A stretch of DNA of 64,000 nt from Octopus vulgaris (taxonomy: Eukaryota): the NCBI GenBank assembly GCA_951406725.2, contig OX597837.1, forward strand, positions 47,616,001-47,680,000. Reading direction: 5' to 3'. Below, in pieces: positions 50,601 through 54,841 of the stretch. A program made the translations under genes and the position numbers. The notes beneath the pieces were generated by a model that saw nothing but the letters and a program-made list of their open reading frames with translations, had not been told where the DNA came from and did no database searches. The first letter of the stretch is position 1, and each line of letters starts with the position of its first letter.

Positions 50601-53600
50601 TTGAGTGTGGCCATGCTGGAGTACTGCCTTTTAGTTGAAGAAATCGAGCCCTGGACTTATTCTTTGTAAGGCTGATTCTTATTCTATCGATATCTTCTGC
50701 CGAACAGCTAGTTACGGCGACGTAAATACACCAACATCGGTTTCTAAGTGCTGGTGGGGGAACAAACACAGACGCAAATACAACATATATGTATGTATAT
50801 ATATATATATATATATATATATATATATACATACATACATGCATATATATGTGTGTGTGTGTGTGTATACATATATATATATATATATATATATATATAT
50901 ATATATATATAGGACACTTCTTTCAGTTTCCGTCAGACTTCTTTCAGTTTCAGTGCGTATGGACGTGTGTATATGTGTGAGTATGTGTATAGATGTGTGT
51001 ATATGTGTGGGGCTAACGTGTGTGTGTTTTGTGTAGCAGTTGATGTGTGTTTGTTCAGGTGGTTTATGCACATGTGTATGTGTGTGTGTCTGTGACCAAG
51101 TAGTGTGCATGTGTATAGTGTTGTGTGTGTACATATATTGTCTGTGTTCAGGTATTATGTGCTTGTGTGGGTGTGGGAGTGTGCATGATGGTGTGTGGTG
51201 TGTGTACTTGAGTTAAACGGTGTGTGTGACTGCTCGTATAGTGGCGTGTGTGGTGACGCTATTGGGGAGTTATGTGTGTGTGGGGGTGATGGTGTGTGTT
51301 GTGGGTGCTAAGAAGTGTTCGGCGCTAGTGTGTGTGGAATGGGAAGGTGTTTGTAAATGTGTGTGTAATTGAGTGTGAAGCGAGTAATGAGTTGAACAGT
51401 GTCTATGGGTGTTTGTATAGTGGTGTGTGTGGTGAGGGTACTGAGGTAGACGGTATGCAGGTGTGTAGGTGGAAGGGACAGTTGAATATGGGGAATGTGT
51501 GGGAATCCGTGTGGAGTTGGTGTCAAATGAAGTGAAGTAGTGAGTTGAGCCCATATGGGGCAAAGGAATGAAGAGAAAATATTAATTCTTGTTTACGGAG
51601 AATGCGTGAATCCGGGAGGCTCCTGTACAGAGACAGTCCGAACACAAACATGTTGTAGCCAATGACCAGTAGAGTGTCGTAGTTAAGTCAGTGTCCGGTC
51701 ATACAGTGACAATGGTTTCGCATCCACAAAGGACTAAGCCCCATGGATGTCTCGTCAGACTCTAAAGCCGAAGACAGATGTAACTCTCTCTCTCTCTCTC
51801 TCTCTCTATATATATATATATATATATATATATATATATATATGCTAAGGAAAACTGAAGAAGTTTTTAACGTTTCAAGCCTTTGTTTTTCTACAGACGA
51901 AGGGAGAAAAACGCCAAATGCGTCTGAATTAAACGGTGACCGGAGTTTTAGTTGGGTATATAGCCACACGTATTTCTGTACGCCTGCTTAATATACTTTC
52001 AAAGTCTCTATTTCGAAAGGAAGAATCTTAGCTACAAGCTACGTGCCTCTGTGTGTGCATGTGTGTGTGTGTGTGTGTGCGTGCGCGCAGCATGCTCGGA
52101 TGTAAAGTACCAGTGGTTACCCCTGATAAATATTTTTGTGTATCTGCATGGATATTATATCAATCATAATATTCGGTATACGCAATTGAGACAGTGTTTA
52201 ATTAAAATAGACATGTATCATGTATATGTGTATACACTGACGATAGGCCAGTCACTGCAGTATATGTCCTGAGATAACATAGAATTGCTTTGTTAAAATA
52301 CAACAAATAGCAAAGAGGGATGAACATCCGTCTGAGTAGTGGCCATCTGGAGCACCAGACACATTTCTTTTTTTTTCTATTAAACACTAAATATGATCCA
52401 TAGATGTCTATTTTAATTAAGCACTGCCTTATTTGCATATACTGGATTTTAATCAAACCGACGGTTATTTGCAACTTCAGTGTCTGTGGCTGTATGTATG
52501 TATGTATGTATGTATGTATGTATGTATGTATGTATGTATGTATGTTTGTATGTATGTGTGTGTGTGTATGTATGTATGAATGTATGTATGTATGTATGTA
52601 TGTATGTATGTATGTATGTATGTATGTATGTATGTATGTATGTATGTATGTATGTATGTATGTATGTATGTATGTATGTATGTGTGTATGTATGTATGAA
52701 TGTATGTATGTATGTATGTATGTATGTATGTATGAAAGTATGTATGTATATATGTATGTATGTATGTATGTATGAAAGTATGTATGTATGTATGTATGTA
52801 TGTATGTATGTATGTATGTATGTATGTATGTATGTATGTATGTATGTATGTATGTATGAAAGTATGTATGTATGTATGTATGTATGTATGTATGTATGTA
52901 TGTATGTATGTATGTATGTATAAGAGGTATAAGGACTTGCTGAAGGCATACTTAAGATATGCTTGCATCTCTCCTGACACATGGGAACGCATAACTATTG
53001 ATCGTAGTAGGTGGAGAAGGATTGTGCACGAGGGGACAGCCACTTTTGAGAAATCGCGAGTTACACATGAGAAAGTAAGGAGGGATGTCAGGAAGGGCAT
53101 CGCTGTTACACTTCCAGAAGGGAAGGGTCTTCCTTTGATGCTGGCATGCAATGTCTGTGCAAGACCCTGCCTCAGTTAAGCTAGACTCAAGAGTCATCTT
53201 CGTAGTCATAAAACGAGACAGATGAGTGACAACCTGGCCACTGGTGGTGGTGTAACACGCCATACTAATCATATCTGTCGGGCATGTAGAAGAGGGTGTA
53301 ATTCGGCAGGAGGACTTAAACGACATGCAAAGGTACATGAAGCCCAGTTACAACTACAGCCGGCTATTACAGGCAAAGGTATTAGTTGCCAATTCTGTAC
53401 AAGACATTGTAGATCTTTGGCTGGGCTAAAAAGTCACATTCGATCACAGCACCAGTAACAGTTAAGCTTCGTGCAATGGCCATACTCGATAACGAGGGGG
53501 CAGCCATAATAATAATAATGTGTGTGTTTGTGTGTGTGTGTGTGTGTGTGTGTGTGTGTGTGTGTGTGTGTGTGTGTGTGTGTGTGTGTGTGTGTGTGTG

Positions 53601-54595: not shown

Positions 54596-54841
54596 ATGGC
54601 TGCCCCCTCGTTATCGAGTATGGCCATTGCACGAAGCTTAACTGTTACTGGTGCTGTGATCGAATGTGACTTTTTAGCCCAGCCAAAGATCTACAATGTC
54701 TTGTACAGAATTGGCAACTAATACCTTTGCCTGTAATAGCCGGCTGTAGTTGTAACTGGGCTTCATGTACCTTTGCATGTTGTTTAAGTCCTCCTGCCGA
54801 ATTACACTCTCTTCCACATGCCTGACAGATATGATTAGTAT
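54596..54841 (-). mobile_element. Second, inverted copy of the same RTE 3' end (246 bp)
   Basis: Reverse complement of 53262-53507 with 4 substitutions. Confidence 0.9.

What the first reader, a model, noticed from the sequence alone, without database searches (positions are those of the whole stretch)
53262..54841. Inverted LINE pair bracketing the distal last exon, predicted to form a ~246-bp dsRNA with an ADAR-type A-C mismatch
Seen: 53262-53507 (intron, about 315 nt upstream of the acceptor) and 54596-54841 (putative 3' UTR) are reverse complements with only 4 differences. In the pre-mRNA these would be three G-U wobbles and one A-C mismatch (A53288, UAG context). (GT)n at 53520-53612 and (CA)n at about 54447-54480 could extend the stem inward. 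The loop would hold the 3' splice site, the tail exon and the stop. Established: inverted repeats flanking exons affect splicing, ADARs favour A-C mismatches in UAG, and coleoids have very extensive A-to-I editing. Inference: this fold could influence proximal versus distal tail choice.
Basis: partly seen in the sequence, partly recalled or inferred. Interest (0 to 1): 0.72.

Follow-up and report, generated by a model that had tools for sequence, protein, structure and literature searches.

The report
Locally homogenised inverted octopus LINE pair
Two back-to-back, 98%-identical scraps of a common jumping gene flank the spliced last exon of an octopus receptor-kinase gene and are predicted to fold into double-stranded RNA, but they likely do not steer the choice of protein tail, because both tails also occur in distant cephalopod relatives and are likely far older than the scraps.

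Summary
The repeat is real: 246-nt arms, four differences, three G-U and one A-C. Both arms are 5'-truncated 3' ends of an endonuclease/reverse-transcriptase LINE with about 1,200 candidate copies. The looped exon is genuine: contigs from three studies join the last kinase exon to 53822. One arm was therefore likely copied from the other locally, most probably by gene conversion. The A-C mismatch is uninformative: 793 of 870 copy pairs give one. The regulatory idea is weak. Both tails exist in a cuttlefish protein cluster, the acceptor is strong, the exon is included in 3 of 3 runs, and comparably perfect inverted repeats occur in 9 of 66 other 10-kb tiles. Editing and the transcript's 3' end could not be tested. 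Verdict: an ordinary inverted-retrotransposon duplex, likely a passive ADAR substrate.

The parts
35888..35987 (+). Last kinase-domain exon of an EGF-like-repeat/TM/tyrosine-kinase receptor (named Tie-like or angiopoietin-1 receptor-like by NCBI); donor CAG|GTGAGC
35988..36026 (+). Proximal read-through tail [16 protein letters not shown]
   Evidence: public model P0004 ends so; similar tails in Argonauta and cuttlefish-cluster proteins; octopus RNA support not tested
52491..52921 (.). (TATG)n array at the 5' junction of the left LINE
52922..53507 (+). Left LINE copy, 586 nt, 5'-truncated; 21 differences from the family majority
53262..53507 (+). Left arm (C2H2 zinc-finger end of the LINE ORF plus its short 3' UTR), intronic
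53323..53507 (+). Inner 185 nt identical to 54596-54780; holds the shared private changes 53371A, 53374C, 53381A and the common variant 53419G
53508..53519 (+). (AAT)4 tail of the left copy
53519..53613 (.). (GT)n array, predicted to pair with 54449-54543
53822..53896 (+). Distal last exon, coding part [28 protein letters not shown]; acceptor AG at 53820-53821
   Evidence: spliced contigs in 3 of 3 RNA-guess runs; translation; single copy in G000
53897..54269 (+). 3' UTR covered by the same contigs; they run into a microsatellite the tool skips, so the true end is unknown
54417..54594 (.). (CATG)n/(CA)n/(CATA)n array; read on the minus strand it is the 3' flank and CAT-type tail of the right copy
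54596..54841 (-). Right LINE copy (right arm), 246 nt, 5'-truncated
54808..54834 (+). Weak cryptic acceptor (AG 54827-54828, then Ile-stop) inside the right arm; possible but unverified source of the 'SQI-stop' public model
54878..54883 (+). First canonical AATAAA after the covered UTR; candidate poly(A) signal in single-copy DNA

Best explanation
Two truncated copies of a young LINE sit tail-to-tail around a real last exon, were likely made near-identical by local DNA copying between them, and are predicted to form a short-lived RNA duplex that is likely an ordinary ADAR substrate and likely does not decide which kinase tail is made. Shown: LINE identity, the private shared haplotype, the splice into 53822, and both tails in distant relatives. 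Inferred steps: (1) each copy inserted separately into microsatellite DNA, the left about 10 My ago by a published calibration; (2) non-crossover gene conversion or template switching later homogenised 53323-53507 with 54596-54780; (3) on transcripts that reach 54841 before the last intron is removed, the arms pair and are edited as repeat dsRNA, without coding effect; (4) tail choice is an older competition between the donor at 35988 and read-through with upstream 3'-end formation, settled before the arms are transcribed.
For: Family: 1,186 first-look candidates, top 40 at 97-98% besides the query itself; a long copy carries endonuclease-like and C2H2 parts, and 468 homologous proteins were found, most of the 120 listed carrying RT. 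Local copying: the best genome-wide match of the left arm is the right arm; the pattern with 53374C hits 4 places and only the two arms have the full haplotype; the inner stretch is identical, against 0 of 21 unselected pairs (mean 13.7, minimum 8 differences) and 2 of 378 pairs selected for likeness. Conversion rather than one duplication: 4 unshared changes all outside and 4 shared all inside, p about 0.03; different native tails, AAT and CAT. No tail control: both tail types among the 10 members of the cuttlefish cluster, 4 distal and 6 proximal; unbroken spliced contigs in 3 of 3 runs from three studies; acceptor scores 21.5, second of 13 in a self-trained matrix; predicted acceptor fold the same with and without arms; similar repeats in 9 of 66 other tiles.
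Against: Editing and the 3' end were not observed. The three runs were found through the distal exon, contigs drop rare forms, and whether those animals carry both insertions is unknown. The inner/outer split is post hoc and rests on 8 sites; 11 other local inverted repeats show no such gradient (16 outer, 21 inner). The A-C does fall in UAG, a context held by only 3 of 77 adenosines of the left arm. The acceptor score is circular (matrix trained on the same 13 sites). The LINE clade was not fixed by a tree.
Confidence: 0.62

Rival explanations
1. One reading: the duplex loops out or delays the distal acceptor, perhaps tuned by ADAR, and so shifts proximal versus distal tail use.
For: Very stable predicted stem (arm duplex -486 kcal/mol, inner microsatellite duplex -164). 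Two conserved tails exist. Inverted Alu pairs are enriched around skippable exons (PMC13019027, abstract).
Against: Both tails are likely older than the insertions. In that paper the stability-skipping link held only for exons with weak acceptors (section 21 read); this acceptor is strong. The exon is terminal and included in 3 of 3 runs. The read-through stop lies about 17 kb before the left arm.
Confidence: 0.1
2. The right arm is not a separate insertion but a single local inverted duplication (template switch) of the left LINE's last 246 nt into the nearby microsatellite; function as in the best explanation.
For: Private shared haplotype. A chance tail-to-tail pair within 1.5 kb is expected only 0.04-0.19 times per genome under uniform placement. 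Near-perfect local inverted repeats are common here.
Against: The right copy stops exactly at the LINE 3' end and has a different native tail, lacking the left (AAT)4. Differences cluster outside the shared tract (p about 0.03). Family copies cluster more than at random: 1 of 28 loci held a second, unrelated LINE copy within 1.5 kb.
Confidence: 0.2
3. The duplex hardly forms in vivo: the transcript is cleaved before 54596, or the last intron is removed before the right arm is made, so the pair is inert DNA.
For: The arms are 1,088 nt apart and in different gene segments, both of which lower Alu editing (PMC4066801, passages). A variant hexamer (AATATA, 54414) precedes the right arm.
Against: The first canonical AATAAA after the covered UTR lies beyond the right arm, at 54878. 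Polymerase II normally runs past the cleavage site (established knowledge).
Confidence: 0.2
4. The antisense right arm supplies a new acceptor (54829) for a third, tail-less kinase isoform ending SQI, and pairing with the left arm masks that acceptor.
For: Public model P0001 ends SQI-stop. Of 4 sites in 35988-74000 that would give this ending, 54829 has the most pyrimidines (14 of 20) and is followed by AATAAA.
Against: It ranks only 7th of 23 such sites within about 240 kb and scores -3.4 against 8.7-21.9 for the gene's real acceptors. Which acceptor the model uses is unknown, and no junction was seen.
Confidence: 0.05
5. The inner identity is an assembly or polishing artefact: one arm was overwritten with reads of the other.
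For: The haplotype is seen only in this assembly; no locus-specific reads were available.
Against: Four differences remain, tails and flanks are distinct, and the flanks are single-copy. Mis-polishing would more likely pull towards the family majority.
Confidence: 0.03

Closest known systems
Inverted Alu pairs as ADAR substrates (PMC4066801, passages; PMC9989829, passages; PMC9068888, passages for coleoid repeat editing)
   Same: Two young same-family retroelement copies in opposite orientation about 1 kb apart in one transcription unit; long predicted duplex.
   Different: LINE stubs rather than SINEs; 98% rather than the much lower identity typical of Alu pairs (recalled); editing not shown here.
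Loop-out exon skipping by inverted Alu pairs (PMC13019027, abstract and section 21)
   Same: An exon and its acceptor lie in the loop of a repeat stem.
   Different: Terminal exon, strong acceptor, one arm downstream of the stop, exon readily included, alternative tail older than the repeats.
Non-allelic gene conversion between neighbouring retroelements (reviewed in PMC6598467, passages); inverted-repeat arm homogenisation by template switching (PMC8604942, abstract only)
   Same: Neighbouring copies under 10 kb apart share derived variants in a tract and are more alike than family members.
   Different: A single case without an outgroup locus; direction and date unknown; the yeast cases concern much shorter repeats.
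RTE-2_OV, the brain-expressed octopus RTE LINE (PMC9115989, passages)
   Same: Endonuclease, RT and C2H2 zinc-finger architecture, microsatellite 3' end.
   Different: Two of its published primers (2 tested of those listed) do not match a long copy of this family at up to 3 mismatches; likely a separate family.

Membership tests
APE-endonuclease/RT LINE (RTE-like) | ORF with APE endonuclease and reverse transcriptase | tested here: met
   L077 fragments hit endonuclease models below Pfam cut-offs (E 5e-5 to 5e-3); no RT hit in the four fragments scanned, but most of the 120 listed homologues of the C-terminal part carry PF00078
APE-endonuclease/RT LINE (RTE-like) | Common 3' end, variable 5' truncation, short-repeat tail | tested here: met
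APE-endonuclease/RT LINE (RTE-like) | Target-site duplication | tested here: inconclusive
   both copies sit in microsatellite, where a duplication cannot be told
RTE clade proper | Placement in the RTE clade on an RT tree | not tested
   the label RTE-like rests on architecture and recall
RTE-2_OV | Sequence identity to the published element | tested here: not met
   0 of 2 primers match L077; supplements listed but not read
Inverted-repeat ADAR substrate | Long near-perfect predicted duplex | tested here: met
   245 of 246 pairs in register
Inverted-repeat ADAR substrate | Both arms on one RNA molecule | tested here: inconclusive
   UTR shown to 54269 only
Inverted-repeat ADAR substrate | A-to-G clusters in RNA absent from matched DNA | not testable with these tools
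   only contigs were served, and paralogues dominate the arm
Loop-out exon skipping | Weak acceptor on the looped exon | tested here: not met
   second strongest of 13 by a self-trained matrix
Loop-out exon skipping | Exon skipped when the pair is present | tested here: inconclusive
   included in 3 of 3 runs, but runs were chosen for it and their genotype is unknown
Loop-out exon skipping | Arm deletion changes splicing | not testable with these tools
   needs a minigene
Non-allelic gene conversion between neighbouring copies | Shared derived variants absent from other copies | tested here: met
Non-allelic gene conversion between neighbouring copies | Tract with a boundary, independent history outside it | tested here: inconclusive
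   4 shared inside, 4 unshared outside, p about 0.03, post hoc; different tails
Non-allelic gene conversion between neighbouring copies | Pre-conversion state in an orthologous locus | not testable with these tools
   no relatives held for G000

The most novel reading that the evidence does not exclude
A lineage-specific LINE stem, kept perfect by recurrent conversion, has been grafted onto an ancient coleoid tail switch of a Tie-like kinase. It tunes use of the distal tail (which carries a YxN motif) in an ADAR-dependent way and masks a LINE-derived acceptor that would give a third, tail-less receptor.
Probability: 0.07. Interest if true: 0.62.

Novelty: new member of a known kind. Interest (0 to 1): 0.22.

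Why it matters
As it stands it is one clear octopus example of neighbouring retrotransposon copies being made alike by local copying, which keeps repeat-derived dsRNA near-perfect. Repeats are a main editing target in coleoids (PMC9068888, passages). The private haplotype gives a locus-specific tag for measuring editing on a repeat, which is usually blurred by paralogues. If the stem did shift tail use, it would be a direct link from a young LINE through ADAR to signalling-protein isoforms in octopus, but nothing here shows that.

Tried and rejected
No RNA holder listed: no run is on record as RNA; this is no evidence either way. Laying four runs on 54596-55015 gave essentially no cover past 54847 and no contig with the private haplotype in the two RNA-guess runs, but the two large DNA-like runs also lacked cover there, so it says nothing on the 3' end or on presence of the insertion. 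The single A>G place (54717) appears in all four runs and is a paralogue variant, not editing. Family size from a 3' 25-mer (3,179 hits) was rejected: 24 of 41 sampled hits share only the last 46 nt. Edited RNA written back into DNA, a lead, was rejected: no A>G skew (4 of 21 left-copy changes; 2 of 6 left and 1 of 6 right within the arms). A general inner-to-outer gradient of mismatches was not found in 11 other repeats. A rare source subfamily was disfavoured: no third copy of the haplotype (exact match only). Rfam found nothing in 10 loci, including the pair. A third homologue search added no isoforms. Repeat-finder outputs were swamped by microsatellites. Literature searches listed no paper on this locus; the library lacks most subscription papers. 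PMC2950799 is not held and is known only through its citation in PMC6598467.

Full report
Observation. The arms 53262-53507 and 54596-54841 are reverse complements with four differences, three G-U and one A-C at A53288 in UAG, as stated. Folding 53200-54900 pairs 245 of 246 arm positions in register and 94 nt of the (GT)n with 54449-54543, at 37 and 18 C. The repeat is far beyond chance as sequence, but it is made of an interspersed repeat.

What the arms are. A search of the own genome gave 1,186 first-look candidates; the 40 scored were the query and 39 copies at 97-98%. Copies share a 3' end, are variably 5'-truncated and sit in microsatellites. The left copy spans 52922-53507 and the right copy is 246 nt long. 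A long copy (L077) has endonuclease-like segments below Pfam cut-offs and C2H2 fingers, and its C-terminal part finds 468 proteins, most of the 120 listed carrying a reverse transcriptase domain. It is a LINE of RTE-like build; the clade label is recalled, not tested. Two primers of the published RTE-2_OV do not match L077. The left copy differs from the family majority at 21 of 586 sites, about 10 My by the calibration of Jukes-Cantor 0.09 to 25 My in PMC13282606 (part 1 of 3 read; arithmetic).

The host gene. The window encodes a receptor with cysteine-rich EGF-like repeats (read from the sequence), a transmembrane segment and a tyrosine kinase. Public models P0001 and P0004, named Octopus vulgaris by NCBI, align to 13 exons here. 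Contigs from 3 of 3 RNA-guess runs of three studies begin matching at the acceptor, and their loose end is the end of the last kinase exon, so 35987 is spliced to 53822; the DNA-like run continues into the intron instead. The contigs are 2.6-2.7 kb, unbroken across the junction, and cover the UTR to 54263-54269, where a microsatellite stops the analysis. The first canonical AATAAA beyond that is at 54878, past the right arm. Whether the right arm is in the mature UTR stays open.

The tails are old. Among the 10 members of a cluster that includes cuttlefish TIE1, 4 end in a distal-type tail (VYMNM...EKEDDR) and 6 in a read-through tail (VSSHVYIEIYH); two Argonauta models end VSSPVYINVTD. The choice therefore likely predates the octopod-decapod split (about 270 My, recalled) and cannot have been created by these insertions. 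The read-through stop at 36026 lies about 17 kb before the left arm, so a transcript ended there never contains the arms (inference). In octopus the read-through form rests on a gene model only, and no canonical hexamer follows before 37976.

The best genomic match of the left arm is the right arm. Both carry 53371A, 53374C and 53381A; an exact pattern fixing 53374C and leaving the other two open hit 4 places, and only the two arms had all three. The inner 185 nt are identical. Of 40 loci sampled in order along contig C1, 7 covered this stretch, and their 21 pairs differed at 8 or more sites, mean 13.7. Even among 28 copies selected for likeness, only 2 of 378 pairs were identical there. One arm was thus copied from the other. 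All 4 unshared changes lie outside, and all 4 shared changes inside, one boundary (p about 0.03, post hoc), and the two copies have different native tails, AAT and CAT, both common in the family. This favours two insertions followed by gene conversion over a single duplication, but only modestly; 11 other local repeats show no inner-outer gradient. Conversion between copies under 10 kb apart is known for Alu (PMC6598467, passages).

The A-C mismatch. Every transition between inverted copies gives G-U or A-C, and 793 of 870 ordered pairs among 30 arms have at least one A-C. The UAG context is less common (3 of 77 left-arm adenosines), but the site is intronic and arises from a G-to-A change private to the left copy. 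There is no A-to-G skew that would suggest edited RNA written back to DNA.

How ordinary it is. In 67 tiles of 10 kb (6 from the window, 41 neighbouring, 20 on other contigs), inverted repeats of at least 200 nt, 95% identity and at most 2 kb gap were found in 10, this one included: 9 of 66 others, namely 7 of 41 neighbours, 2 of 20 elsewhere and 0 of 5 in the window; one is a self-overlapping palindrome. Their origin was not established; earlier AI notes ascribe many such foldbacks to Penelope-type elements (unchecked). Some exons will lie in such loops by chance.

Mechanism and verdict. Most likely the arms pair briefly on nascent RNA that reaches 54841 before the last intron is removed, and are edited like other young repeats (PMC9989829 and PMC9068888, passages), with no coding effect. 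For Alu pairs, editing falls with distance and is weaker across segments (PMC4066801, passages), and the link to skipping held only for weak acceptors (PMC13019027, section 21). This acceptor is strong by a rough matrix and its predicted local fold is the same with and without the arms. Against my reading: the runs were selected for the distal exon, their genotype is unknown, contigs hide rare forms, and editing was not measured. A modest lineage-specific effect on tail use is not excluded (about 10%). Verdict: new member of a known kind, interest 0.22.

Noticed in passing
window 35988-36026 and 53822-53896: Two C-terminal tails of this Tie-like kinase are conserved from octopus to the cuttlefish cluster, each with a VY motif. 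The distal tail has YMN (YMNM in the cuttlefish cluster), resembling Grb2/p85 SH2 docking motifs (recalled). Neither public octopus model in the cluster has the distal tail, although contigs of three studies do.
   Followed up: partly
window 54808-54834: Weak cryptic acceptor in the antisense LINE arm that would give the SQI-stop ending of public model P0001; a better-scoring candidate lies about 80 kb past the window end.
   Followed up: partly
L079, L080, L092, L104, L115, L117, L120, L132: Near-perfect local inverted repeats of 240-900 nt are frequent; 6 of 11 examined start at a microsatellite. No Rfam hit; a recalled hammerhead-core pattern hits 3 of 9.
   Followed up: partly
L036-L075: 24 of 41 hits share only the last 46 nt with this LINE, most with a common unrelated upstream sequence, likely a SINE using the LINE's 3' end; 4 more share 79 nt, likely a sister family.
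   Followed up: no
L018 and L020: Family copies with an inverted 5' piece, as expected from twin priming.
   Followed up: no
window 46654-49120, minus strand: A second, unrelated LINE fragment with an RT domain (Pfam RVT_1, E 9.5e-32) and a frameshift, antisense in the last intron, with a (GATA)n array at its 5' end.
   Followed up: no
window 44898-45102: Two tandem copies of a 102-nt unit that is itself a palindrome around a (TA)n core.
   Followed up: no
window 8728-9132, 12190-12664, 18196-18471: Further local foldbacks of 86-306 nt at 91-93% identity.
   Followed up: no
window 30601-33086: A 2.5-kb higher-order satellite (32/60-nt period) inside a kinase-domain intron.
   Followed up: no
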